This document shows, one piece after another, positions 753-64,000 of a stretch of DNA of 64,000 bases; the stretch's first letter is position 1; each line of letters starts with the position of its first letter. The stretch lies in the UHGV virus genome UHGV-0218015, one strand, 5' to 3'. The notes under the pieces are model-generated. The model was given only the letters and a program-made list of their open reading frames with translations. It had not been told where the DNA came from and did no database searches. A program made the position numbers and the translations under genes. The DNA comes from a virus.

Positions 753-2528
753 GTGTTTAAAGATGCAATCAAAAAGCTTAAAGAGAGTGGTAAAATAGTA
801 CCCTTTAACCGCGCGATTGCGGAAGGAGTCGGATATACACAAGCCAAAGATGGTATTCACGATCGTGTGCATCGTATCTTGAAACGTGAGCTAGATTACC
901 ATCCTGTAGAGAATCCGCGTGTTCCTGAAGGCTTGGCTGTATTGGGTGTTCGTTTAATGTCGCCGTTCGAAACTTTTATCTACAAGTTGTCTCGCTCAGA
1001 GAGCAGCAGAATGGATAAACGTCGTGGGGTGATGTCTATAGCGAATACCGATGCGTATATGGTCATGTCGTCGTTCCGTATTCCTGGCGACTCAAGGCCG
1101 ATCTCAAGACCGATTAACTTGCCATTCATTCGTCGTGGTGGGTTGATGAACTATTACGGGACAACGTACCACGTTGCGCCTGTTATTCATCAGCCGGGTA
1201 TCTGTCGTGAGCATGGTGGGGTGTTTGTTAATTTTGACTTTAAACGTAAAGCGTCACTAAAATTCTGTAAGCACCCGGTACGTATTTTAGTGAATGGGAA
1301 GAAAGAAGAGTTGTTCTTGCCCGGAACAAACAATTTGTTTAAAGCCAAAAACGCCACACATCCTGATACGGACGAGAAACCGTTAATGTACTGGTTATTC
1401 GGACGTTATGGATTTAAGGAAGCCATCAAACGTTATACTGGTGTGGATGTAGAGATATATCCTGCATTCAAAGTACCTGAAATCGATCTCGATAAAAAAG
1501 TAGTAATCGGTTCAGGTGAACCTAAGCATAATCGGGCGATTATGTACGTAGTGACGGTTCCTGCAGAGGCTTTACCGAATCTCGATAAAGCGGGATGGGA
1601 TCAAAACGAACACTTATTACTCGTAGCGATTTCTGCATTCTTTAAAGCAGCGCACTATTATTGCGGAAAACAAGCGATTAAAAACGGCAACGTTGTTCCT
1701 TTACCGCCGTTGTTTACCGCTATTAATGAACTTGCAATGGAGGACGATGTTGTAAACCTGAATTCCTCCGCAATTTGGCGGGAGATTTTGGGGAGAAGTA
1801 TTGTTGGACTTAAACCGTCTGATATTGAACTGGCACACAGCATGACGAAACACTATACGGAGTGTGAACGCTACGTTAACTCAACATTCCGTGGCGAGTT
1901 AATGATGTCAGATCCCGATATCCCGGACGATATGGATATGTTTGATTTCTTCTGGTACGCGACGAAGTTGATGGTGAGAACGCGCCTCACGAAACAAGGC
2001 GATATTCCGTCAATGTATGGAAAACGTCTGACCGTAACAGATTACCTGTTATTAGGTGAGCGTGGTTTTACACCTACCATTGCTGCGATTCGTTTTCACT
2101 TGGGACAAACGGAGAATAGAACACCGGAGTCTTGTGCGAACATGATACGCAGTGCGTTGAATAAAGACATTGTAACCAGCCTGGTATTGCGGAACATTAC
2201 CGGTAACGGCGGTGTAAGTTATTTCAACGCTTCTACAGAGTCTATGGTGCTGGGGGTTTCAACCCATGCTATCAGCCAGACAGAAACAGAATCAAAACGT
2301 AGCAGCAAGGGCGGTAAGACGGTTAACCTTAACGACCGGACAAAACATGCCTCTGCATCTCATCTGGAATGTGGTAACGTGTATTACATTCCGAAATCAT
2401 CACCGTTCAAATCGGGCATTCTCAATCCGTATATGAAGACGAATACCCAACTGGTGATGGTACGTAATCCAAAACTCAACGACTTGATCCAAGCAACCGA
2501 AGAAGACATTGCGAAGATTGGCCGTTAA
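753..2528 (+). CDS. hypothetical protein (591 aa)
   Basis: Long ORF in co-directional block, GTG start just after upstream stop; no recognisable motif. Confidence 0.55.
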   Translation: MFKDAIKKLKESGKIVPFNRAIAEGVGYTQAKDGIHDRVHRILKRELDYHPVENPRVPEGLAVLGVRLMSPFETFIYKLSRSESSRMDKRRGVMSIANTDAYMVMSSFRIPGDSRPISRPINLPFIRRGGLMNYYGTTYHVAPVIHQPGICREHGGVFVNFDFKRKASLKFCKHPVRILVNGKKEELFLPGTNNLFKAKNATHPDTDEKPLMYWLFGRYGFKEAIKRYTGVDVEIYPAFKVPEIDLDKKVVIGSGEPKHNRAIMYVVTVPAEALPNLDKAGWDQNEHLLLVAISAFFKAAHYYCGKQAIKNGNVVPLPPLFTAINELAMEDDVVNLNSSAIWREILGRSIVGLKPSDIELAHSMTKHYTECERYVNSTFRGELMMSDPDIPDDMDMFDFFWYATKLMVRTRLTKQGDIPSMYGKRLTVTDYLLLGERGFTPTIAAIRFHLGQTENRTPESCANMIRSALNKDIVTSLVLRNITGNGGVSYFNASTESMVLGVSTHAISQTETESKRSSKGGKTVNLNDRTKHASASHLECGNVYYIPKSSPFKSGILNPYMKTNTQLVMVRNPKLNDLIQATEEDIAKIGR

Positions 2529-17093: not shown

Positions 17094-17560
17094 TGCGTAT
17101 TACTATTATTCTCAAACCCGACAGTAAATACGGAAAGTTATACGGCGACCAGGTACTCAAACTGCACAACATGCTGTTCGCAGAAGAGAAAGTGCGTATT
17201 AGTCAGTTAACCGGACGTGACACGTTCAACCCCATCGAACGTTTAGAAGAGATTTGGCCTCAAGATTATCTCTGTGCGTGTGCGGTGGACGACAACGAAC
17301 AGCTTCTGGGATTTATGACGTTCTCAATGGGTTCTTGCTCAAAGGACACGTTTGTTTACATCGGGAATTACTATGTGGTTCCTGAAGCACGCTCTCAAGG
17401 GGTAGGCCGTGCGCTTATGGACAAAGTCCGTGAATACGGAAAGTCCAAAGGCTGTGGTTGGATGAGTCTGGATGTGTTAGACAACAACGTTAAAGCTATC
17501 TCCTTGTATGAGAAGATGGGATTCCGTACCGAATGCAGGGAAATGATAAAGGAAATCTAA
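17093..17560 (+). CDS. GNAT-family acetyltransferase
   Basis: ARSQGVGRALMDKV plus a C-terminal SLYEKMGF-type segment typical of GNAT folds. Confidence 0.5.
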   Translation: MRITIILKPDSKYGKLYGDQVLKLHNMLFAEEKVRISQLTGRDTFNPIERLEEIWPQDYLCACAVDDNEQLLGFMTFSMGSCSKDTFVYIGNYYVVPEARSQGVGRALMDKVREYGKSKGCGWMSLDVLDNNVKAISLYEKMGFRTECREMIKEI

Positions 17561-17561
17561 A

Positions 17562-18194
17562 ATGGCTGCAAGATTAGTACCGTTTCATGACGGGTCTAGA
17601 TATACTTTTGGTGTAGAGCGTTACGCTGTGGGTTTTCGTCCTGGTTGGAGAGTGGTACGAATCGATAAAGCGTGTTGGTGTTTACCGACCGGCATTTTTG
17701 ATTACTTTACACCTGAAGCTTTAACGCGGTTTGTTTCTCTGGGTTCACCCACTCAACGTGCGGCGTGGGAAAAGAATATTCGTTGTCGTTATTTGGGTAA
17801 AACACGAAACGCGACAGTCCGTGGCGTTTATCACGTAAGAAGTCGTTGGTTACACGTCGAGCCGACACACCCACGATGTGCAGTCACACCCTTTAATGGG
17901 GAGTATAAAGGTCAGGTATACACAGGATTGCATTTTGCTTTTCCAGACAACCCCGATCTTAATTACTTTTTAGCCACCCAGAAAAACGTTACGTTGTCTA
18001 CGTTCTATAAATACCTTTTGTTCTATCCTGCGTATGTCGTTGCAGAATATGAACACAAAGCATTTCCCCTACCTTACGGTAGAGACAGGAGATTAGCAGG
18101 ATGTTCTATCGAGAACTTCAGCAATACACCGACGCTCTCCGAAAAGCGACCATCGATGCAGACAACAACCTCAGAGATGTCGTTAGCGCTATAG
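17562..18194 (+). CDS. hypothetical protein
   Basis: ORF; its last ~94 nt overlap the next gene. Confidence 0.4.
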   Translation: MAARLVPFHDGSRYTFGVERYAVGFRPGWRVVRIDKACWCLPTGIFDYFTPEALTRFVSLGSPTQRAAWEKNIRCRYLGKTRNATVRGVYHVRSRWLHVEPTHPRCAVTPFNGEYKGQVYTGLHFAFPDNPDLNYFLATQKNVTLSTFYKYLLFYPAYVVAEYEHKAFPLPYGRDRRLAGCSIENFSNTPTLSEKRPSMQTTTSEMSLAL

Positions 18195-18472
18195 AACAGT
18201 GTTCGGATGTATTGTATGCGGAAACGATTGAATCGCCAACTCACGACGGTGTGAAATCGCTCCAGCTACACGTTTGTAGTAAACACGGTAGTCTGTCGTT
18301 AAACTTCCGTGTAGGTTTAGATTATTACATGGTTCGTAAGAGCTATTTAAGTTGTGATGGCGACCTCTATCCGGTTGTCTGGAACAACGATTATTCTAAG
18401 TTTGTTTATCCGCTTGAAGAACACCGACGCACGGTTTACGAATTTGTGAAAGCTGTTCTTGAGGGGTTCTAA
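18101..18472 (+). CDS. hypothetical protein
   Basis: ATG with AGGAG SD upstream. Confidence 0.4.
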   Translation: MFYRELQQYTDALRKATIDADNNLRDVVSAIEQCSDVLYAETIESPTHDGVKSLQLHVCSKHGSLSLNFRVGLDYYMVRKSYLSCDGDLYPVVWNNDYSKFVYPLEEHRRTVYEFVKAVLEGF

Positions 18473-51701: not shown

Positions 51702-51739
51702 TCGCTAAGTCAACTACTACAACAAAAAATAATAAGTTT

Positions 51740-51780
51740 ACCTACCTCCTTTACGGAGGTAGGTACTTTTTTATTTTATC
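51740..51780. terminator. bidirectional terminator between convergent blocks
   Basis: 11-bp stem tacctacctcc / ggaggtaggta, A-run upstream, T-run downstream. Confidence 0.75.
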
Positions 51781-52445
51781 CCCATTTCCAAAGCGTACGC
51801 TCGGATGGTATCATAATCACGCCGCTCGGCTAAAAGCCGAAGCTCTTTTTTCTGCTCGGTTTTCTGCCCATGCAATTTCTGATCACGTTTCACAATCGCT
51901 GCCATCAGTTCTTTGCATTGTTCCAACGTGAACGGTTCTATTCGTGCATTCGACGTATCCAACCAATATTCCGGGGCGGTTTCAGACTGAATATACTGAC
52001 TTAACATCTGTCGCGATGCGTCGTCTGTTTGGAAATAACACCCATTTAACTTAATGGGTGCATAACGCTGTTCCTCATAAAGACGTTCCATCTCTATCAT
52101 GATTTTCTGAACATCTTGATAGATATAACGTGCAGTTGATCGAACGTTGTTTCGTATTTCTTCTAAATCAATCTCAAGAACATCAGCGATAAATTCTTTC
52201 GCTTTCTGTAGAGTGAAATTAGCCTCAATCTCCGACATATCGTAACTACGCATCTGTTCGATTGCGGCCTTATCTTCCAACCCATCGATTAATTTGTAGT
52301 GTAGAAGCGCACAAAAACCCGCACGACCACGATCCTCGTTGCCAATTCGTTCCATGTAATTACCGTGGCGATCGATTGGAAGCCCTCGTGAGAAATAACG
52401 TTGACGTATTTCCTCTTTCGTTAAGCCTTCGTCAATAACAGACAT
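51771..52445 (-). CDS. hypothetical protein
   Basis: Last gene of the minus-strand block. Confidence 0.45.
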   Translation of the reverse strand: MSVIDEGLTKEEIRQRYFSRGLPIDRHGNYMERIGNEDRGRAGFCALLHYKLIDGLEDKAAIEQMRSYDMSEIEANFTLQKAKEFIADVLEIDLEEIRNNVRSTARYIYQDVQKIMIEMERLYEEQRYAPIKLNGCYFQTDDASRQMLSQYIQSETAPEYWLDTSNARIEPFTLEQCKELMAAIVKRDQKLHGQKTEQKKELRLLAERRDYDTIRAYALEMGIK

Positions 52446-56626: not shown

Positions 56627-56774
56627 TACAATTATAATGACTTAAAGGTAATCCTGCGAGATTGTTGGTTGAGGAAACCGTTCCTTGGTTTGCAATATAG
56701 TTGTTTGCATTAGCGGTGGTGATATATCCCTCCGCCGTTACTAATCTGTCGCGTATGTTTTTAAGACTTATCAT
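56565..56774 (-). CDS. Cys-rich precursor-like peptide P3 (69 aa)
   Basis: Leader ISLKNIRDRL and core NCNGGCSWSCSGSCS similar to P1/P2; ends in the G9 tract. Confidence 0.55.
   Translation of the reverse strand: MISLKNIRDRLVTAEGYITTANANNYIANQGTVSSTNNLAGLPLSHYNCNGGCSWSCSGSCSKGAGGGK
56572..56580 (-). repeat. G9 homopolymer on the coding strand at the P3 / beta-domain junction
   Basis: Minus-strand reading aag ggg gcg ggg ggg ggt aag taa; a G5 run lies just 5' of it. Confidence 0.7.
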
Positions 56775-56777
56775 TTC

Positions 56778-57176
56778 TTATCTTCCAGTACACGATTGCT
56801 GACATCCGCCTCGACATGAACCTGAACATGTTCCGGTGCAACTACTTGAACAACCGCCCGAGCAATTACCTGTGCACCCTCCTGAGCAGGTACTGCTACA
56901 ACCTGTGCAACCTGTACTACATCCTGAAACACAGTTCGCTGAACAGGAAGAACCGCAGCCGCCGGAGGCGTTGCCGGTACAGCCGCCCGAACAACTTGAG
57001 CACGTCCAGCTACAGCTACCTCCACAGTCATAGTGATTTCTCGGCTGTCCTCCAAACAGATCGCTATTATTAGTGGCTTTACCACGAATATAGTTCTGCA
57101 CCGCACCTGTATTTTTTAATGCAGTAGAGTCTATGTTATCTAGCCGGGCCTTTAAAGAAGATAAACCAATCGCCAT
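56778..57176 (-). CDS. Cys-rich precursor-like peptide P2 (132 aa)
   Basis: Leader LSSLKARLDNIDST; core DCGGSCSWTCS followed by ~20 Cys spaced every 3-4 residues among G/S/T. Confidence 0.6.
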   Translation of the reverse strand: MAIGLSSLKARLDNIDSTALKNTGAVQNYIRGKATNNSDLFGGQPRNHYDCGGSCSWTCSSCSGGCTGNASGGCGSSCSANCVSGCSTGCTGCSSTCSGGCTGNCSGGCSSSCTGTCSGSCRGGCQQSCTGR

Positions 57177-57234: not shown

Positions 57235-58149
57235 TTATCGTAGTTTTTCTGAGACTCTATTCTTAGCCCCTACCACACGACGTATATAGTCGTAAGCATC
57301 TAATCCAACCTTTCTGGCCAAGTCACTACAGCCGTGTTGCGTTACGATTTCAACGTTCTTTACTTGGTTCTGGGCACCGTCAGACTCAATGCGAAAACAA
57401 CGACTACATGTGTTACAGGGTTCATCAAATAACGCATTTAGCGTAAACGCACATTCACTTCGATTGGACGAATTCAGTCTTTCTATATTCTCCTGAATTC
57501 TAAAATACCCGTAAATAAAGTTCATAACGTGATCGGGAGATAACGGTTTTGGCATGTTTTTGTCCAAAACCAGCGACATCTCACAAAAACCATAATGGTA
57601 AATGTGGTTATGTAACGCAATTATATCTTCGTACCAACGTTTATCCCCAATACGCTCGCGTGTCAAAACCGCCCAAGTACGAATATTTTTCAATTCGTAA
57701 ATTGTCTCCAAAACCTCGTATTGTTTTTCTTCGATAATCCGCATGAACGGACGCTCTGATTCTTTGAATCCATCCATGCTAAAAAAGATACTATCAAAAC
57801 CCTTTAACAACGGTAGATGCGATTTACGCATTTTTAAACCATTGGTATACAGGTAATGTTCGCAACGAGGATACTTCTCCCTTATCTCTTCTATAAGGGT
57901 ATCAATTTTACGCGTGGCAAGTAATGGTTCGCCCCCTGACCATTGGATATTTGTGATAGTCGGGTTATTTTCCAGCGCCTCGATAATACTTTCCTTTTGT
58001 ACTTCTGCGGTTGTATCCTCTCTATGCATGTAATAGGCTCCGCCGCAGAAGCTACAGTCCAGATTACATTTGGATGTTGTAATCACGTTTAACGTTCTCG
58101 GATTACTGTAAAGCTTATCGGATACCGTCGGTCTAGTAAGTTCTTCCAT
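57235..58149 (-). CDS. radical SAM enzyme (paralog A)
   Basis: TSKCNLDCSFCGG and GGEPLL; C-terminal CNTCSRC. Confidence 0.7.
   Translation of the reverse strand: MEELTRPTVSDKLYSNPRTLNVITTSKCNLDCSFCGGAYYMHREDTTAEVQKESIIEALENNPTITNIQWSGGEPLLATRKIDTLIEEIREKYPRCEHYLYTNGLKMRKSHLPLLKGFDSIFFSMDGFKESERPFMRIIEEKQYEVLETIYELKNIRTWAVLTRERIGDKRWYEDIIALHNHIYHYGFCEMSLVLDKNMPKPLSPDHVMNFIYGYFRIQENIERLNSSNRSECAFTLNALFDEPCNTCSRCFRIESDGAQNQVKNVEIVTQHGCSDLARKVGLDAYDYIRRVVGAKNRVSEKLR
57478..57561. repeat. 84-bp block identical to 54514..54597
   Basis: See partner copy. Confidence 0.7.
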
Positions 58150-58168
58150 TCGAATTGATCCTTATTTT

Positions 58169-58564
58169 TTATGGGTTAGAACAACCACCTGCACAAGAAC
58201 CACTACACCCCGAGGAACAACGTCCAGCACATCCCCCACTACAAGTCCCACTACATCCTGAACAACCACCCGAACACGTTCCGCTACAACCACTGCATTG
58301 ATTACCACACGCAGAGGAACAGCTTCCTACGCACACCGATGTACATGTACCTGAACAACTCGTACAACCATGCGTACAACCGTTTGAGCATGTCCAGCTA
58401 CAGCTACCTCCACAATCTAATCGACCGGGTGTCCAACCTGAAAATGAATCAGCAGCGTTATGTGCTTTCGACGCAACTTGCGGATCAACACGTGGGCCAG
58501 TTGCCATTTGGTTCTCTACGTTGGTGATTCGGTCACGCACATTTTTAACACTGATCGCCATCAC
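58169..58564 (-). CDS. Cys-rich precursor-like peptide P1 (131 aa)
   Basis: Leader ISVKNVRDRITNVEN; core DCGGSCSWTCS plus ~20 Cys in CSG-type repeats. Confidence 0.6.
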   Translation of the reverse strand: MMAISVKNVRDRITNVENQMATGPRVDPQVASKAHNAADSFSGWTPGRLDCGGSCSWTCSNGCTHGCTSCSGTCTSVCVGSCSSACGNQCSGCSGTCSGGCSGCSGTCSGGCAGRCSSGCSGSCAGGCSNP

Positions 58565-58587
58565 GTATCCTTAAAATAAAAAAGAAT

Positions 58588-58612
58588 GGAGGACTACGTC
58601 CATAAACATAGT
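58588..58612 (-). terminator. weak terminator candidate between fibre-like gene and P1
   Basis: Short palindrome ggactacgtcc followed on the minus strand by a T-run, then the P1 SD. Confidence 0.3.
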
Positions 58613-58628
58613 TCCTCCTGTAATTAAA

Positions 58629-59828
58629 TTATTTCGTACCTGCTTCTGCCTGAACGTCATCACGGGACGTCAGGTTAGCGTTAACGTGTACTGAAGCCTG
58701 AACCACACCACCGTATTTCTTGTGGAGATAACCTGTGTGTGGGTTATCTGCCGCAATATGGTTTTGTAGGTTCTGATTCGCCTGACTGATTGCGTTCGTG
58801 TTATTCGCAACCTGTTGTTTAAGCGCATCCAAGTTTTGTTGCAGATTATCAATTTTCTGATCGGTCTCATTACCCCGCTGTTCTAACGCAGCAATGCGCT
58901 GAATCGCTTGGTTGAGTTTGGTGTTCAGATCGTTGATATTTTTCTGTAACTGTAACACTAACGAGTTTAGGTTCGCCAGCGCCAGTGCCATTTTCTGATA
59001 GTTTTGTGCAACGACGTTAAGTTGGTCGTTCCACGCTTCCAGAGATTTGACAACAGCATCAATACGTTTTCCTAACGCTTCGTCCGCTTTCTTCAATGCA
59101 TTGATATCGGCAATCGTTGCATCAATGGCTGTCTGAACACTGCGAATTAAAGCGCGGATCTCCGTTTCCGTTAACCCGTTAACCTGATGAATATCCAGAT
59201 GGTGGACATTACCAGTAGAGTTAATGTGCGCGTTCAGCGCGTCCAGGAAATCGTTTTTCAGGCTATCGAGAATCGCTTTGATGTTCTCAAGCTGTACAGC
59301 ATCACCCGCAGTTATCGCATCTTTAATGCCAGCGAGCACTGTAATGATATATTCGAAGCCGTAAATATCACCGACGTCTTTATACGTTGGTGCTGAAGGA
59401 AACGTGTCCGGCACATTTCGCAAGTCTTTAAAGCCAACAGTTCGATTATCGAGTTTCAACTCGGCAATCGCTTGCTCAATCGCGGTCACATTTGCAGACT
59501 GAGGACCACCAACTACTTGCGCCGATACCGTGATATCGGTCGGAATCGCGGTGTTCGTTACAACAACCGCCATTACCACTTCCCGGTTCTTCGTCAATTT
59601 CTCATAAGCCGGGTGTGCAAAAATCAGTTCATAGTCCGTTCCACGCTCATATGTCGCTCCAGGTCGATTGGCAACCCGCAAGCGGAACGTATCGGCATAA
59701 AACGGACCATCAGGGAAAGCAAACGCACGGTTAACTTTGCCTGTACCTAACGTAATCTGACGCTCCACGGCGTTAGAGGTTAGGGTTCCCGTTAAATCTA
59801 AAGGGTATTGGTATACAATGGAGGCCAT
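58629..59828 (-). CDS. coiled-coil fibrous protein (tail fibre/whisker-like)
   Basis: ATG at 59828 after AAGGAGAG (track start 59954 lies inside upstream gene); long heptad-like Q/N/L-rich central region. Confidence 0.5.
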   Translation of the reverse strand: MASIVYQYPLDLTGTLTSNAVERQITLGTGKVNRAFAFPDGPFYADTFRLRVANRPGATYERGTDYELIFAHPAYEKLTKNREVVMAVVVTNTAIPTDITVSAQVVGGPQSANVTAIEQAIAELKLDNRTVGFKDLRNVPDTFPSAPTYKDVGDIYGFEYIITVLAGIKDAITAGDAVQLENIKAILDSLKNDFLDALNAHINSTGNVHHLDIHQVNGLTETEIRALIRSVQTAIDATIADINALKKADEALGKRIDAVVKSLEAWNDQLNVVAQNYQKMALALANLNSLVLQLQKNINDLNTKLNQAIQRIAALEQRGNETDQKIDNLQQNLDALKQQVANNTNAISQANQNLQNHIAADNPHTGYLHKKYGGVVQASVHVNANLTSRDDVQAEAGTK

Positions 59829-59868
59829 GGCCACTCTCCTTAATCCGAGACGTCCTTGTCTCGTGGCG

Positions 59869-62800
59869 TTAAGATGTAAACATAAGATTGAACTGGAGTT
59901 TATCGATATCGCGAGTTTGTGCTGGGTTAACCGCATCGTACGTGGTTGCCACATAGACCGTTAACGTGCCGTCAGAATACGCGGTTTTCACCGGTGGTGT
60001 AGTCCCTGTCTGTCCATCAGTTACAATGACGACAGGTTGAGCCGGGAGTTGACGAAACTGACTCTTAACCGCTTTATAGACCAAACCAGATTGTGCCGCT
60101 TGCTCTGTGGCGGTGTACACGATAAACGGTGTGTCGATATCTGTCTGTTTAATGACAGTGTTCGTCTCAACGTCAATCAGCTGAACAGCACCAAATTTGG
60201 TCCGGTAACTATCGTATTCATTTTTTGGAATGACAAACGTAGCATGAAGGCGGACTTCGGCGGCTGGCTTAAATCCCGCGTGTTCTTTTTCCAGGTAACT
60301 GTTAGCAGTTAGCGTTACTGTCTGTTCAGTCATCGTACCGCCAGACTGATTTAGCCCGTAACGAACTTGAGTTATACCTGTCGGGGCCGCAAGCCTGATT
60401 TTCAGTCTACGATTAGCAGTACCAGGATCGCCAGGTACTTTAACACGCAGACTCAATGCCAGATATGCATACTCGCCAGTAGTCGGTTTCGTATACGCGC
60501 CCAACCACTTCATGTTCGCGGTTGCTGCTTGTTTGTTCTCAGAAGCAGTAGCCGCTGCAACGTTCGCAGCAACCGCTTTCTGCCAGAACTGGTCAGCGCA
60601 GTTCTCATACGCCACCCTGCTGATACTTTTATAACCTGAATAGGTTTCCTGTACCGGCAACCTGGAACGTGTTGTAATCCCGGACAACGTATTCCATTTC
60701 TGACCATCGACATACCCAGCACCCTTGCTCGCAGATGCTGTAACGACTTTAACGGGTTTATTAACCAGCGTTAATAGTGGGCCAGTTTTCCTGTCGAATG
60801 CCTGCGCCACATCGTGTTGATCAACAATCGATGCATGATTTTCCAGCTCTTTTACGCGACCTAACCGTTTTACTTTATCGATACTGATATCCGTAATACG
60901 GTTCGAATCAGTGGTTACAGTCCCAACAAACAGTCTCGACGAGGTATCAGCTAACTGCTCTAAACCGATGCGGTATTGGGCAGTAGAACCGACCACTTCA
61001 GCATAAACGTAGAACGTCTGGTTAGCATGATTAGTCGGGAATTCATCGCTTAAATCAACGGACCATCTTGGAACGGTATATCTTTTATTTCCAAAACTTA
61101 ACTCGGTTTCCTCCGTCAGATAGAAATTCCAACCGCTCTGTGTTTGTACGCCGCCAATAATAATCTTATCGATAACAGTATATTTTTTGTTAAACAAATC
61201 AGAGATTCTATACTGTTCGCCACCGAGATACAACTCGTTTAAATCTTCCGAGTTACAAGTCAATAGCGCGATGCCCGAGAGATCGGGTATATAGACTTCA
61301 GATGTATTATTCAGCTTATACGTATAGCCCCACGCCCGATGAATTTCGCCGGTAAACCATTCGCCTTTTTTAGTCAAGTTTATCCCAAAAGCAAAAGAAA
61401 TCTCTGATCCTACAAGATTCCCACCAACCAGGTTATGTATTGAGAATCTGAACTTTTGTCCGTCTTGCGAATAAAGGAAAACTTGACCGGAGCGTTGTTT
61501 AAGTTCACCATTAAAAGCTGTGGGTGAGAGATTAATGGCGTTACTGGCCACTTTTTCCCTGAACGTCATCATTCTCGCTTCCGAACTAACGAACCTTATG
61601 ACCCCGTTGGTTATAGTCGGTTTTACCTGAAAGAAGTAAAAAGCAAACTTATTTACCCCGTCAGTGTCTTTATAGATAAGACTCACTATCGCGATACAAA
61701 GCGGACCACCAGACATCGTTTGACCAAGCACCCAAAAGGACAAACTGTAGTTGTTCTTTTTGGTCTTAGCTACGCTAATCCGCTCATAGGCGTTGCCGTT
61801 AGATGCCCCGGAGAACTGGCTGGACTGAACAATATTAGTCAGCTTCGCCCATTCTGCCGCATCGATAGACAACCGATCACTACCCACCGTAGTGGTACCG
61901 TAAACAACTGTACACGGTTTACTTTCGGCACCGATAAAATAAGCCCCTTCTAGTAGGCCGTTCGGTATTTCTGGCGTAACAACCAGCGGTATATTTGTCA
62001 ATATGCCGTATTCGTTCGCTGTTTTTTCAACACGGCGGGATGTTGGTCCAAAACCACCGTATCCAGGATAACCATAGGTCGTATTTTTATCATATTCGGC
62101 TTCAATGAAATAAGCCGATTTTTGATGTTTAAGCCATACTTTGTTTGTTCCTGGGAAGAACAATGGGAAGGTCATAGACGGTTTCCACACCGAACCCACC
62201 ACAGGGTTTATCCGATTTTCAAACGTAGATTGCCCCTCATACCCCACACTCAACTTAACATAGTCCAGATAACTAACTCCTTCTGGGAGTTTCTGGTAAT
62301 GGAGAGATGGTGCGAGTTGTTTTTCTGTCGAACAGCAGCAAGAATAAACCATATCACCGACACAGATTCTATTGTCGGCCATATAGCCAGAACTTCGAGT
62401 AGCCCATTTCCATTTCAGCTCTATTTTTGTTCCGTCTTTTAAGTAACAACCTGTAGTATCGATTTTGATTGGGAAGACGTTAGTTGTCTCTAACCCAACC
62501 TCCCCGGTTAATAGGTCAAGACGATAAGCACCATTCCATGGCCCGAATGTGGTACCTTTCGTTGAAGAAAAACCAAGACAAACACCAGACACGCCGACGG
62601 TTAACAAGTGACCGTCCTTAACAACGGGCGTTATCCATCTTGACGACCCTCTAGTTAATTGTAAGTTCACTGTCCACAACGCTTTGCCTTCCGCAGTGAA
62701 GTAGGCAAGACGCTTCGTATTCGGATTATCTACATCGAACGCGCCAGGTTCAACCAAATCGGCACACTTACCGATTTTTCGTGTAGACCTTAAATCAACC

Positions 62801-64000
62801 TGTTCAAACCGATCGGTTTTATTAAGCCGCAATAAGCCAACACGGAACATGGGTTGTGGGGTATCCTTAATGTAGTCCACCAGAGTATTGTTTTTCAGAT
62901 CGGCCATTAGCATCGTACGCAAAACATAGACGCCGTTATCGGCTATGACCACACGATCCATGAACATATTCGGCACAAATTCCCATGTTGTTTCTGAAAC
63001 AAATTCTGAGAAAGTTACCAACCTGACATCGGTATGTTTGGTGTAATCCATTGAACCGTTCAGTTTAACTAAATAATAATTATTGTCGCTGCCCTTCGCT
63101 ATAAATGCTTCGGTACCAGTAACGGTAATTTCTTTTAGTTCCACCCCCGGATAATTCGTCTCTAACCCTTTCGGCTTATAACGGAAAGTTGTTTTGTAAA
63201 TTTCACCGAGACTTTTGTCGTTTTTTAACCCAGCAACAGCGTAATAAATACCCTCAGTTCCCGGAAGGGCGGATTTAGAGCTAATTAAAGCATAAAGCTT
63301 ACCTTGTTGTACCCCTATAACCATCTGGAGCGCATCCATGTTTTTACCATAACCTTCGTAATTACCCATCGACAAGATCGGCAATATCGAATTGTTGGTA
63401 TATTTGCTCCCGGCCGTTGTCCATGAGGGCAAGAGGGTATTCAGTTTATCAGAGACCTTCTTAATCTCTTTTGCGAACAGCCACCCTTGGCGTGATGTGA
63501 CGGCTTTATCATTCGTGGTATCAATCGCATCCCACAGCTGTAAGATACCGTCCACTGTTGCGCTACCAATCGGGACATTATCCAAATCAGCGGTAGTGTG
63601 CGTGTGTACCTTCAAACTTTTATTTTTCAGCACGTTCGCTAATGCTTTTGTTACCGGTTTAGCGATGGGTGTGGTGTTATTCATCTTATCGATACCGAAA
63701 TCGGCCTTCGTTAAGGTTAACACCATGTTGTCGCCTGTCTTAACAAACCCTTTACCGTTAACCGTGTAGTCGTCGTCAACGTACAAGTCCAACCGGTTTT
63801 TTAACTCGGTCACAGCCTTTTGGGAAATAGCAGTGCCTAGCGCTACAGAGGTTGCGATATTCGTAATCGAAAACACCCCATAAACCGACTCGGTTGCTGT
63901 GGGAATATTCGCGTTCAACGTTAGTGGGTTAGACTGCTTCGCTGTACCGTACGGTTTTACGGTATCTGACGATTTGAAATAGGCATTCGCTTCAAGTAAC
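59869..64000 (-). CDS. very large structural-like protein, 5'-partial
   Basis: Minus-strand ORF; frame stays open from the track TTG at 63918 to the window edge, so the N-terminus is probably outside the window. Confidence 0.55.
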   Translation of the reverse strand, partial: LLEANAYFKSSDTVKPYGTAKQSNPLTLNANIPTATESVYGVFSITNIATSVALGTAISQKAVTELKNRLDLYVDDDYTVNGKGFVKTGDNMVLTLTKADFGIDKMNNTTPIAKPVTKALANVLKNKSLKVHTHTTADLDNVPIGSATVDGILQLWDAIDTTNDKAVTSRQGWLFAKEIKKVSDKLNTLLPSWTTAGSKYTNNSILPILSMGNYEGYGKNMDALQMVIGVQQGKLYALISSKSALPGTEGIYYAVAGLKNDKSLGEIYKTTFRYKPKGLETNYPGVELKEITVTGTEAFIAKGSDNNYYLVKLNGSMDYTKHTDVRLVTFSEFVSETTWEFVPNMFMDRVVIADNGVYVLRTMLMADLKNNTLVDYIKDTPQPMFRVGLLRLNKTDRFEQVDLRSTRKIGKCADLVEPGAFDVDNPNTKRLAYFTAEGKALWTVNLQLTRGSSRWITPVVKDGHLLTVGVSGVCLGFSSTKGTTFGPWNGAYRLDLLTGEVGLETTNVFPIKIDTTGCYLKDGTKIELKWKWATRSSGYMADNRICVGDMVYSCCCSTEKQLAPSLHYQKLPEGVSYLDYVKLSVGYEGQSTFENRINPVVGSVWKPSMTFPLFFPGTNKVWLKHQKSAYFIEAEYDKNTTYGYPGYGGFGPTSRRVEKTANEYGILTNIPLVVTPEIPNGLLEGAYFIGAESKPCTVVYGTTTVGSDRLSIDAAEWAKLTNIVQSSQFSGASNGNAYERISVAKTKKNNYSLSFWVLGQTMSGGPLCIAIVSLIYKDTDGVNKFAFYFFQVKPTITNGVIRFVSSEARMMTFREKVASNAINLSPTAFNGELKQRSGQVFLYSQDGQKFRFSIHNLVGGNLVGSEISFAFGINLTKKGEWFTGEIHRAWGYTYKLNNTSEVYIPDLSGIALLTCNSEDLNELYLGGEQYRISDLFNKKYTVIDKIIIGGVQTQSGWNFYLTEETELSFGNKRYTVPRWSVDLSDEFPTNHANQTFYVYAEVVGSTAQYRIGLEQLADTSSRLFVGTVTTDSNRITDISIDKVKRLGRVKELENHASIVDQHDVAQAFDRKTGPLLTLVNKPVKVVTASASKGAGYVDGQKWNTLSGITTRSRLPVQETYSGYKSISRVAYENCADQFWQKAVAANVAAATASENKQAATANMKWLGAYTKPTTGEYAYLALSLRVKVPGDPGTANRRLKIRLAAPTGITQVRYGLNQSGGTMTEQTVTLTANSYLEKEHAGFKPAAEVRLHATFVIPKNEYDSYRTKFGAVQLIDVETNTVIKQTDIDTPFIVYTATEQAAQSGLVYKAVKSQFRQLPAQPVVIVTDGQTGTTPPVKTAYSDGTLTVYVATTYDAVNPAQTRDIDKLQFNLMFTS

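What the first reader, a model, noticed from the sequence alone, without database searches (positions are those of the whole stretch)
58629..64000. Fibre-like genes directly upstream of the peptide cluster
Upstream on the same strand are a very large 5'-truncated ORF and a 400-aa protein with a long heptad-like Q/N/L-rich region typical of trimeric fibres or whiskers, separated from P1 by only a weak hairpin. Co-orientation with the cluster supports co-expression as part of late/structural transcription.
Basis: inference. Interest (0 to 1): 0.4.

Follow-up and report, generated by a model that had tools for sequence, protein, structure and literature searches.

The report
Baseplate fibre genes of a jumbo phage
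These two genes are the last two of a four-gene set that builds the fibres under the tail baseplate of an SPN3US/phiKZ-type giant phage; their counterparts in SPN3US are already known tail proteins, so the finding is correct but ordinary.

Summary
On the minus strand, 59869-64000 is an ORF open to the window edge (1376 codons; relatives are 1727-1728 aa). 58629-59828 encodes a 399-aa protein with 20 unbroken heptads.

Both are orthologues of Salmonella phage SPN3US gp168 and gp167. Published mass spectrometry finds both in virions and not in tailless particles.

The 399-aa protein has three parts:
- a phiKZ gp131-like N-terminal domain, the module that docks fibres under the phiKZ baseplate;
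- a coiled coil of about 20 nm;
- a short conserved His/Tyr-rich end.

The large protein models as beta-propeller-rich. It is mosaic between close relatives, as host-range proteins usually are.

The "weak hairpin" before P1 is a stable stem (-17.7 kcal/mol) followed by a T-run. It is kept at the same place in four relatives with different stem sequences. It looks like the terminator of the fibre operon, so co-expression with the peptide cluster is unproven.

Verdict: a new member of a known kind, low interest.

One lead is worth keeping. Fibre genes followed by radical-SAM clusters recur in distant jumbo phages, and the Cys-rich peptide genes are unannotated or mis-framed in SPN3US.

The parts
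59869..64000 (-). Large 5'-truncated gene, the orthologue of SPN3US gp168 (a baseplate/tail-fibre protein). 1376 codons lie in the window; about 350 N-terminal codons, including the gp131-like N-domain, lie beyond the window edge.
   Evidence: Open to the window edge. Matches phrog_7449 at E=0, profile positions 349-1708 of 1714. 93% identical to P0052 (1728 aa). 33% identical to and collinear with SPN3US gp168 residues 360-1725. gp168 is a virion tail protein by mass spectrometry.
63469..63999 (-). Fibre 'neck' segment of the large protein (in-window residues 1-177), shared with the gp169-type paralogues.
   Evidence: BLASTP of residues 18-154 against SPN3US gp169 residues 386-517, E 8.5e-12. 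phrog_8078 'virion structural protein' over residues 7-168, E 2.4e-16; weak match to phrog_2126 'tail fiber protein'. 85.6% DNA identity to L005.
61069..63018 (-). Variable central region of the large protein (in-window residues ~328-977), beta-rich and propeller-like. Candidate receptor-binding or glycan-binding module.
59872..61068 (-). C-terminal ~400 residues of the large protein (in-window 978-1376). Conserved among close relatives and exchanged independently of the central region.
   Evidence: 67-89% identity to P0053-57 but only 68-82% to P0052. Residues 969-1062 match SPN3US gp170 at E 4e-8. phrog_7557 and phrog_3573 match at E about 1e-26. In the AF2 model this is a beta-rich domain following a low-confidence linker.
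59829..59868 (-). 40-nt spacer between the two genes. It holds a small hairpin without a T-run and the AAGGAG ribosome-binding site of the 399-aa gene.
   Evidence: Sequence read directly; fold -12.2 kcal/mol with no U-tract. The spacer is also 40 nt in L005. Co-transcription of the two genes is inferred from this.
59184..59828 (-). gp131-like N-terminal domain of the 399-aa protein (residues 1-215), the baseplate-docking / fibre-base module.
   Evidence: A profile of this domain hits phiKZ gp135, gp134, gp131 and gp133 (E 1e-38 to 4e-22) and SPN3US gp169, gp170 and gp168 (2e-15, 5e-8, 8e-7). hhalign against the gp168-type N-terminus gives 97.9% probability, E 5e-13. 1343 cluster representatives at E<=1e-3; in the 150 listed the match starts at or near residue 1, in proteins of 166-1560 aa. 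The phiKZ atlas places six such domains plus a six-helix bundle at each fibre attachment site.
58749..59168 (-). Coiled-coil shaft of the 399-aa protein: residues 221-360, 20 heptads, about 20 nm if fully helical.
   Evidence: Periodicity test, 0 of 2000 shuffles. Single heptad register, conserved across the family. AF2 gives a single helix 221-359.
58629..58748 (-). Conserved C-terminal end of the 399-aa protein (residues 361-399, DNPHxxYLHKxYGG...RDDVQAEAG) plus the stop codon. Possible distal knob or partner-binding site.
   Evidence: H357, Y367, G373, V380 and A394 are nearly invariant. AF2 confidence is low here. The function is inferred only.
58573..58618 (-). Terminator-like element: stem-loop at 58588-58618 followed by the T-run ATTCTTTTTTATTTT at 58573-58587. 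It lies between the 399-aa gene and P1.
   Evidence: -17.7 kcal/mol alone; z = -3.25 for the 76-nt region. An equivalent hairpin plus T-run sits at the same position in L005, SPN3US, SaP7 and Stratton, with different stem sequences. It is the most stable intergenic fold in the minus-strand block. The simple scan missed it because of the bulge.

Best explanation
The two genes are the 3' half of a conserved four-gene array, orthologous to SPN3US genes 170-169-168-167. This array encodes the fibres attached to the periphery of the baseplate of an SPN3US-like, phiKZ-related jumbo myovirus.

Shown here or in the literature:
- Orthology to SPN3US gp167 and gp168.
- Virion and tail location of those orthologues.
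- A gp131-like N-terminal domain in the 399-aa protein and in full-length relatives of the large protein.
- A 20-heptad coiled coil in the 399-aa protein.
- A propeller-like fold in the large protein's model, and mosaic variation between relatives.

Inferred:
- As in phiKZ, where six gp131-like N-domains plus a six-helix bundle form each fibre base under gp130, the N-domains of the four paralogues assemble into a hetero-oligomeric socket on the baseplate.
- The 399-aa protein adds a coiled-coil shaft of about 20 nm with a small conserved His/Tyr-rich tip. It is probably present in more copies than each large paralogue.
- The large protein hangs a variable propeller module and a separately exchangeable C-terminal domain at the distal end, for recognition (possibly cleavage) of host surface glycans. 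It would thus set host range.
- The hairpin plus T-run after the 399-aa gene ends or attenuates the fibre operon.
For: Orthology:
- tblastn gives 79% identity over 100% of the query to SPN3US gp167 ('virion structural protein 20'); 64 phage records cover at least 80% of the query.
- phrog_2163 'virion structural protein' at E 1e-103; phrog_7449 at E=0.
- Synteny with SPN3US, Stratton, SaP7, L005 and EarlPhillipIV.

Virion location of the orthologues:
- SPN3US gp167: 25 peptides, 85 spectra, 70% coverage. gp168: 65 peptides, 203 spectra (PMC5694885 supplement).
- Both have spectra in tailed particles and a blank in the tailless am27 sup- sample (PMC5105663 Table S4).
- gp168/169/170 are called baseplate/tail-fibre candidates.

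Domain evidence:
- N-domain profile hits and hhalign result.
- 1343 representatives; in the 150 listed the domain is N-terminal, in proteins of 166-1560 aa.
- In 60 sampled relatives the C-terminal parts carry Peptidase_S74 chaperone (15), PKD (7), Gp53-like tail-fibre C-domain (4) and Collar (1).

Mechanistic template from phiKZ:
- phiKZ atlas (PMC13250141).
- phiKZ gp131-135 tolerate no transposon insertions (PMC12676376).

Coiled coil.

Large protein: AF2 pLDDT 76; propeller matches; mosaic identity pattern.

Copy number hint: spectra per kDa are 1.90 for gp167 against 1.00-1.41 for gp168-170.
Against: - Nothing was measured for this phage itself. Virion location, essentiality and position on the baseplate are all transferred from SPN3US and phiKZ.
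- The N-terminus of the large protein lies outside the window, so its gp131-like domain is seen only in a 93%-identical relative.
- The oligomeric state of the coiled coil is unknown. Ile-rich a positions with Leu-rich d positions fit dimers as well as trimers, and only a monomer could be modelled (pLDDT 64.7).
- The 399-aa model has no significant PDB fold match; the best E is 0.03.
- Propeller matches are generic, at 5-12% identity. phiKZ gp131's own propeller (4GBF) was not among the listed hits. No catalytic residues were tested.
- The SPN3US stoichiometry hint is only semi-quantitative.
Confidence: 0.85

Rival explanations
1. The fibre genes and the downstream Cys-rich peptide / radical-SAM cluster are one functional, co-expressed unit. 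In this reading the modified peptides are fibre-tip components or fibre-maturation factors that work with the 399-aa coiled-coil protein.
For: - Same strand, with only 64 nt between the two.
- The linkage '399-aa gene, then small peptides, then ~300-aa protein, then two radical-SAM genes' is kept even in a Derbicusvirus where the 399-aa protein is only 43% identical.
- In the distant Pseudomonas phage pPa_SNUABM_DT01, two gp131-like fibre genes are followed on the same strand by six radical-SAM genes.
- The last gene of the block (51771-52445) has DUF4376, E 2.8e-9, a domain I recall from tail-fibre assembly proteins, so the cluster would be bracketed by fibre-related genes.
- The real peptide genes are unannotated or mis-framed in SPN3US. 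Their absence from virion mass spectrometry would be uninformative if the MS search used only the annotated proteins, which I did not verify.
Against: - A conserved, stable hairpin with a T-run separates the two units.
- Gene order is broadly conserved in this phage group anyway, so synteny is weak evidence.
- The SPN3US radical-SAM proteins gp163/164 and gp165 are annotated, so they were presumably searchable; they were not found in virions.
- No physical or sequence link between the peptides and the fibre proteins was demonstrated. The 399-aa protein has no cysteine (sequence).
Confidence: 0.2
2. The 399-aa coiled-coil protein is not a projecting fibre. It would be an assembly scaffold, ruler or strut for the large paralogues, remaining in the particle only as part of the fibre base.
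For: - Its length is fixed at 395-400 aa across divergent relatives, as expected of a ruler or strut.
- It is far more conserved than the large protein: 79% against 33% identity to SPN3US. That argues against direct receptor contact.
- It has no recognisable receptor-binding domain.
Against: - Its SPN3US orthologue is an abundant component of mature tailed virions.
- Conserved shafts with variable partners are normal for fibres.
- The distinction from the main explanation is one of degree.
Confidence: 0.1
3. The proteins are head, ejection or non-structural proteins, and the coiled coil is incidental.
For: - PHROG labels phrog_2163 under 'head and packaging'.
- The old phiKZ annotation calls neighbouring large proteins 'structural head protein'.
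- Pfam and PHROG coiled-coil hits to SbcC, tape measure and similar families.
Against: - The SPN3US orthologues are absent from DNA-filled tailless heads.
- The N-domain is the phiKZ fibre-base domain.
- All Pfam hits are below their curated cut-offs and confined to the heptad region.
Confidence: 0.02

Closest known systems
Salmonella phage SPN3US gp167 ('virion structural protein 20') and gp168 (paralog family C, baseplate/tail-fibre candidate)
   Same: - Orthologues, with the same gene order and the same lengths (400 aa; 1727 aa against about 1728 aa for full-length relatives of the window protein).
- gp167 is 79% identical. gp168 is collinear over the whole in-window part.
- The same hairpin follows gene 167.
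   Different: - The large protein is only 33% identical, and its central region is replaced by a different variant.
- The window has an extra radical-SAM gene and a P1 C-terminal segment right after the hairpin that SPN3US and L005 lack.
- Overall DNA identity to any phage in the collection searched is about 70-76%.
phiKZ gp131-gp135 tail-fibre base complex (Sycheva 2012; structural atlas PMC13250141)
   Same: - Homologous ~200-residue N-terminal domain, followed by helices and an HxxxxGN(V/P)H motif.
- A tandem array of paralogues.
- In phiKZ and SPN3US the array lies next to an oppositely oriented gp130/gp171-type gene of similar size (427 and 420 aa). Their homology was not tested here, and that gene lies outside the window.
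- In phiKZ these genes tolerate no transposon insertions.
   Different: - phiKZ gp133-135 (~460 aa) continue with HxxNPH fibre repeats, not a 20-heptad coiled coil.
- phiKZ gp131 ends in a 7-bladed propeller (4GBF), which sequence search does not connect to the window proteins.
- phiKZ has no annotated radical-SAM gene downstream of gp135.
Alpha-helical coiled-coil phage fibres (T4 fibritin/wac whiskers, P22 gp26 tail needle)
   Same: A long uninterrupted heptad repeat forming a rod. The P22 gp26 needle appears among weak sequence matches (4lin, E 0.2).
   Different: No homology. No foldon or other known C-terminal trimerisation unit was found. The oligomeric state was not tested. Attachment is by a gp131-like domain at the baseplate, not at the neck or tail tip.
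Beta-propeller receptor-binding or glycan-active modules of phage fibres (S. aureus phi11/80alpha RBP, phi92 endosialidase)
   Different: Identity is 8-10%. The matches are no better than to unrelated propellers such as GH130, Kelch domains and lectins. Active-site residues were not examined.

Membership tests
gp131-like fibre/baseplate paralogue family of phiKZ-related jumbo phages (SPN3US paralog family C) | A ~200-residue gp131-like domain at the extreme N-terminus | tested here: met
   For the 399-aa protein: profile hits to phiKZ gp131/133/134/135 (E 7e-30 to 1e-38) and SPN3US gp168-170; hhalign 97.9%; tblastn to phiKZ gp135 at 26% identity, E 4e-9. For the large protein the N-terminus is outside the window; the domain is present in the 93%-identical P0052.
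gp131-like fibre/baseplate paralogue family of phiKZ-related jumbo phages (SPN3US paralog family C) | Encoded in a tandem array of paralogues beside the gp130/gp171-type baseplate gene | tested here: inconclusive
   Only two of the genes lie in the window. The full array 170-169-168-167 is seen in SPN3US (with gp171 on the opposite strand) and in the 92%-related contig L005.
gp131-like fibre/baseplate paralogue family of phiKZ-related jumbo phages (SPN3US paralog family C) | The protein is a component of the tail of the mature virion | not testable with these tools
   Published for the SPN3US orthologues only: detected in virions and absent from tailless particles.
gp131-like fibre/baseplate paralogue family of phiKZ-related jumbo phages (SPN3US paralog family C) | The N-domains assemble as a hexamer with a six-helix bundle under the outer baseplate | not testable with these tools
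   Known only from the phiKZ cryo-EM atlas. Only monomer prediction was available; helices 153-203 follow the beta domain in the model.
Trimeric coiled-coil fibres (fibritin / tail-needle type) | A long continuous heptad repeat | tested here: met
   20 heptads in a single register; 0 of 2000 shuffles reach the observed periodicity; conserved across the family; one AF2 helix 221-359.
Trimeric coiled-coil fibres (fibritin / tail-needle type) | Parallel trimer with a dedicated trimerisation or folding unit (foldon, or an intramolecular chaperone) | tested here: not met
   No such domain is detected in the 399-aa protein. Relatives P0048, P0049 and P0082, which share the N-domain, do carry Peptidase_S74. 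The oligomeric state itself could not be tested.
PHROG 2163 / PHROG 7449 | Full-length profile match | tested here: met
   phrog_2163 at E 1.4e-103 over residues 1-398. phrog_7449 at E=0 over residues 2-1376, matching profile positions 349-1708.
Beta-propeller glycan-binding / glycosidase receptor-binding modules | Propeller fold | tested here: met
Beta-propeller glycan-binding / glycosidase receptor-binding modules | Conserved catalytic or sugar-binding residues of a specific family | not tested
   No Pfam or PDB sequence match. Model coordinates could not be inspected.

The most novel reading that the evidence does not exclude
The baseplate-fibre array and the radical-SAM / Cys-Gly-Ser-rich peptide cluster that follows it form one functional module. 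In this reading the cross-linked peptides are distal fibre or adhesin components, or fibre-maturation factors. They could have escaped SPN3US virion proteomics because their genes are unannotated or mis-framed there. A comparable pairing of fibre genes with a radical-SAM cluster exists in distant jumbo phages such as pPa_SNUABM_DT01.
Probability: 0.15. Interest if true: 0.75.

Novelty: new member of a known kind. Interest (0 to 1): 0.2.

Why it matters
For the finding as stated, little is new. It fixes the identity of two genes in an unisolated SPN3US-like jumbo phage and shows which parts are likely host-range modules, which could help phage engineering or host prediction.

Two small additions to what is published:
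- gp167-type proteins belong, through their N-domain, to the same gp131-like family as gp168-170. This suggests a fibre base built from four paralogues, analogous to the phiKZ hetero-hexamer.
- A conserved terminator-like hairpin marks the end of the fibre operon.

The larger potential value lies in the neighbouring radical-SAM/peptide cluster. If it proves to be tied to the fibres, it would be a new kind of virion post-translational chemistry.

Tried and rejected
- **Pfam on the 399-aa protein.** 84 hits (ATG17, XhlA, tropomyosin and others), all below their curated cut-offs and confined to the heptad region. I read them as coiled-coil noise. The N-domain alone and the C-terminal tail alone gave nothing.
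- **PHROG hits to tape measure and SbcC.** These cover the same heptad region and are the same noise.
- **PDB sequence searches.** The 399-aa protein, the large protein and a profile of the large protein family gave no meaningful match. phiKZ gp135 has no PDB chain, and gp131 has only its C-domain, 4GBF. The N-domain fold could therefore not be checked against an experimental structure.
- **Foldseek of the 399-aa model against the PDB.** Nothing reached E<=0.001. The four best weak hits are phage tail / tail-fibre complex entries, and the T7 gp17 N-terminus appears at rank 20 (E 0.03-0.9). This is a hint only.
- **phiKZ gp145/gp146.** A published CoreGenes table pairs gp168 with phiKZ ORF145. 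BLASTP of the in-window large protein against phiKZ gp145 and gp146 gave E>=0.26, so the pairing was not reproduced.
- **Sigma-70 promoter scan.** 12 sites against 24.5 expected by chance, so uninformative. It is also probably irrelevant, because phiKZ-type phages transcribe with their own RNA polymerases (my own knowledge).
- **Simple terminator scan.** It missed the hairpin because of the bulge.
- **Literature search for SPN3US infection time-course data.** It returned nothing usable. A search for papers linking jumbo phages, radical SAM and RiPPs listed none among its top hits, which held only two of the three terms.
- **Pairwise BLASTP of the 399-aa protein against P0052.** Only marginal (E 0.012). 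Profile methods were needed.
Full report
**What is in the sequence**

All genes between 51771 and the window edge at 64000 lie on the minus strand.
- The frame that stops at 59869 remains open to the last base of the window. The large ORF is therefore truly 5'-truncated, with 1376 codons present.
- Forty nucleotides downstream, an ATG at 59828 is preceded by AAGGAG. It opens a 399-codon gene ending at 58629.
- A longer 441-aa reading from an upstream ATG overlaps the end of the large ORF. All 30 aligned family members start at the same M(A/S/P) position, which argues against the longer reading.

**The heptad claim**

- Residues 211-360 are rich in A, L, N, Q and I.
- Hydrophobic periodicity at 3.5 residues over 215-360 is 2.57, against 0.24 +/- 0.24 in shuffles; none of 2000 shuffles reached it.
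- The repeat is a single unbroken register of 20 heptads (221-360). Position a is mostly Ile or Leu and position d mostly Leu or Val. The pattern is conserved in 26 relatives: 87% and 81% hydrophobic at a and d, against 22-30% elsewhere.
- A monomer AlphaFold2 model (mean pLDDT 64.7) gives a beta-rich N-terminal domain (strands 20-105, pLDDT about 80), helices 153-203, one continuous helix 221-359, and a poorly defined tail.
- A 139-residue helix corresponds to roughly 20 nm. The length is my inference from 0.15 nm per residue.

**Identity of the phage and the two genes**

- The region matches SPN3US-like jumbo phages (Seoulvirus, Erskinevirus and relatives) at about 70% DNA identity. No record in the phage collection is closer.
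- The 399-aa protein is 79% identical over its full length to SPN3US gp167, 'putative virion structural protein 20'. It matches phrog_2163 at E 1e-103.
- The large ORF matches phrog_7449 at E=0 over profile positions 349-1708. It is collinear with SPN3US gp168 residues 360-1725 at 33% identity. It has a 93%-identical 1728-aa relative in public assemblies.
- Gene order is the same in SPN3US, Stratton, SaP7, the 92%-related contig L005 and the distant Derbicusvirus EarlPhillipIV: large paralogues, 399-aa gene, small ORFs, a ~300-aa gene, then two radical-SAM genes.

**Are the proteins in virions?**

For the orthologues the opposite is published.
- SPN3US gp167 (44.8 kDa) was identified in purified virions with 25 peptides, 85 spectra and 70% coverage. 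gp168 (188 kDa) had 65 peptides and 203 spectra (PMC5694885 supplement).
- In PMC5105663 Table S4, both have spectra in tailed particles: gp167 58/42/79 and gp168 258/213/292. Both have a blank in the tailless am27 sup- sample.
- The authors assign gp168-170 to 'paralog family C, baseplate/tail fiber candidate' on similarity to phiKZ gp131.
- These data are for SPN3US, not for the phage in the window.

**The N-terminal domain**

- tblastn showed that only residues 1 to about 215 of the 399-aa protein match more distant jumbo phages, including phiKZ gp135.
- A profile of this domain hits phiKZ gp135, gp134, gp131 and gp133 (E 1e-38 to 4e-22) and SPN3US gp169, gp170 and gp168 (2e-15, 5e-8, 8e-7). 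Profile-profile comparison with the N-terminus of the gp168 family gives 97.9% probability, E 5e-13.
- gp167-type proteins therefore share their N-domain with paralog family C. The published family C listing names only gp168-170.
- An exhaustive search found 1343 cluster representatives at E<=1e-3. In the 150 listed, the domain sits at or near the N-terminus of proteins of 166 to 1560 aa.
- Among 60 sampled relatives, the C-terminal parts carry tail-fibre hallmarks: Peptidase_S74 intramolecular chaperone (15), PKD (7), Gp53-like tail-fibre C-domain (4) and Collar (1).
- This is the pattern of a conserved virion-docking adaptor joined to interchangeable distal modules.

The 2026 phiKZ structural atlas supplies the mechanism.
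- Under gp130, at each of twelve sites on the outer baseplate, sit six gp131-like N-domains and a six-helix bundle. This was interpreted as gp131x3 plus gp133, gp134 and gp135, continuing into a flexible fibre (PMC13250141).
- phiKZ gp131-135 tolerate no transposon insertions.
- No experimental structure of the N-domain is in the PDB copy searched. The model of the 399-aa protein has no significant fold match.

**The large protein**

- AlphaFold2 on the last 1199 residues gave mean pLDDT 76 and pTM 0.61. The model is almost all beta, with a low-confidence linker (model residues 870-939) before a C-terminal domain.
- Foldseek returns tandem-propeller proteins (E 4e-10), GH43 enzymes and the receptor-binding proteins of staphylococcal phages phi11 and 80alpha.
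- Identities are 5-12%, so this establishes a fold class, not a family. No sequence match to any PDB chain exists.
- Between close relatives the protein is mosaic. In-window residues ~328-977 are 96-100% identical to P0052 but 10-40% identical to P0053-57. Residues 978-1376 are 67-89% identical to P0053-57 but only 68-82% identical to P0052. At DNA level, 61163-63419 has no blastn match in L005, although both flanks match.
- Independent exchange of a central module and a C-terminal module is what host-range determinants typically show. That this protein binds the receptor remains an inference.
- By contrast, the 399-aa protein is far more conserved and has a nearly fixed length. That fits a shaft or base component better than a receptor-binding tip.

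**The hairpin and co-expression**

- The 64-nt gap before P1 contains GGAGGAACTATG-TTTA-TGGACGTAGTCCTCC, a stem of 13 pairs with one bulge, -17.7 kcal/mol alone. ATTCTTTTTTATTTT follows it.
- L005, SPN3US, SaP7 and Stratton each have a hairpin of -22 to -28 kcal/mol (100-nt context) at the same position. The stem sequences differ and each is followed by a T-run.
- It is the most stable intergenic structure in the block. Most other junctions are tiny or overlapping.
- It lies exactly at the end of the 170-169-168-167 array. I read it as the terminator or attenuator of the fibre operon. This is inferred; no transcript data were available.
- Co-orientation is real, but it does not show co-expression.

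**A lead beyond the finding**

Several observations keep open a functional tie between the fibres and the radical-SAM/peptide cluster.
- The linkage persists at 43% protein identity.
- In pPa_SNUABM_DT01, two gp131-like fibre genes are followed on the same strand by six radical-SAM genes.
- The last gene of the block has DUF4376, which I recall as a tail-fibre-assembly domain.
- In SPN3US the three Cys-rich peptide genes are unannotated, and 'gp166' is an out-of-frame ORF over the second one. If the MS searches used only the annotated proteins (not verified), published virion proteomics could not have seen them.

Against the tie:
- The conserved hairpin separates the two units.
- The annotated radical-SAM proteins and gp165 are absent from virions.
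- Gene order is generally conserved in these phages.

I give this reading about 15%.

**Verdict**

The structural, fibre-related interpretation is supported through orthology and domain homology. The co-expression inference is not supported as stated. The genes are new members of a known kind, so interest is low.

Noticed in passing
L003 (SPN3US, JN641803 reverse complement) 17269-17661, 17672-18076, 18092-18298; window 56771-57106 versus 56778-57176: SPN3US has three unannotated Cys/Gly/Ser-rich peptide ORFs equivalent to window P1-P3. Its annotated gp166 is an out-of-frame ORF overlapping the second one; the same shadow ORF exists in the window. Published 'absence' of gp166 from virions therefore says nothing about the real peptides.
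   Followed up: partly
window 57235-58305 (radical-SAM gene 57235-58149 plus the C-terminal half of P1): Compared with the 92%-related contig L005 and with SPN3US, the window carries an extra radical-SAM gene between P1 and P2. It is a 65-67% DNA paralogue of the ~305-aa radical-SAM gene further downstream. This looks like a local duplication or insertion right after the fibre operon.
   Followed up: partly
window 51771-52445 (-), and 51739-51765: The last gene of the minus-strand block (224 aa) has a DUF4376 domain (E 2.8e-9), which I recall from tail-fibre assembly proteins, and a weak PHROG 'tail fiber protein' hit. An 11-bp perfect bidirectional hairpin follows it directly and closes the block.
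   Followed up: no
L008 (Pseudomonas phage pPa_SNUABM_DT01) 9524-24500: Two gp131-like-N-domain fibre genes (797 and 524 aa, with HxxNPHxxTKAQVGLG repeats) are followed on the same strand by a cupin, six radical-SAM genes and 2OG-Fe(II) oxygenases. A 178-aa protein in that cluster ends in CHTSCHTSCHSARGRR. This is a second, distant case of fibre genes next to a radical-SAM cluster.
   Followed up: partly
window 58575-58613 (-), inside the hairpin: The hairpin's 5' arm is AGGAGG, followed 5 nt later by ATG. This opens a 12-codon mini-ORF (MFMDVVLHSFLF) that runs through the stem and the T-run. The loop sequence CTATGTTTATGGAC is nearly identical in SPN3US, although the Shine-Dalgarno-like arm is not. 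It is unclear whether this is more than a by-product of the stem sequence.
   Followed up: no
window 58629-58748 (residues 361-399 of the 399-aa protein) versus P1-P3 N-terminal halves (58410-58564, 57020-57176, 56640-56774): The fibre protein carries HxxxxGN(V/P)H / DNPHxxYLH motifs. The peptides carry 'N(A/N)xD(L/S)FxGxxxxxHY(D/N)C' just before their Cys-rich repeats, which resembles common tail-fibre motifs. This is a resemblance by eye only, not tested.
   Followed up: no
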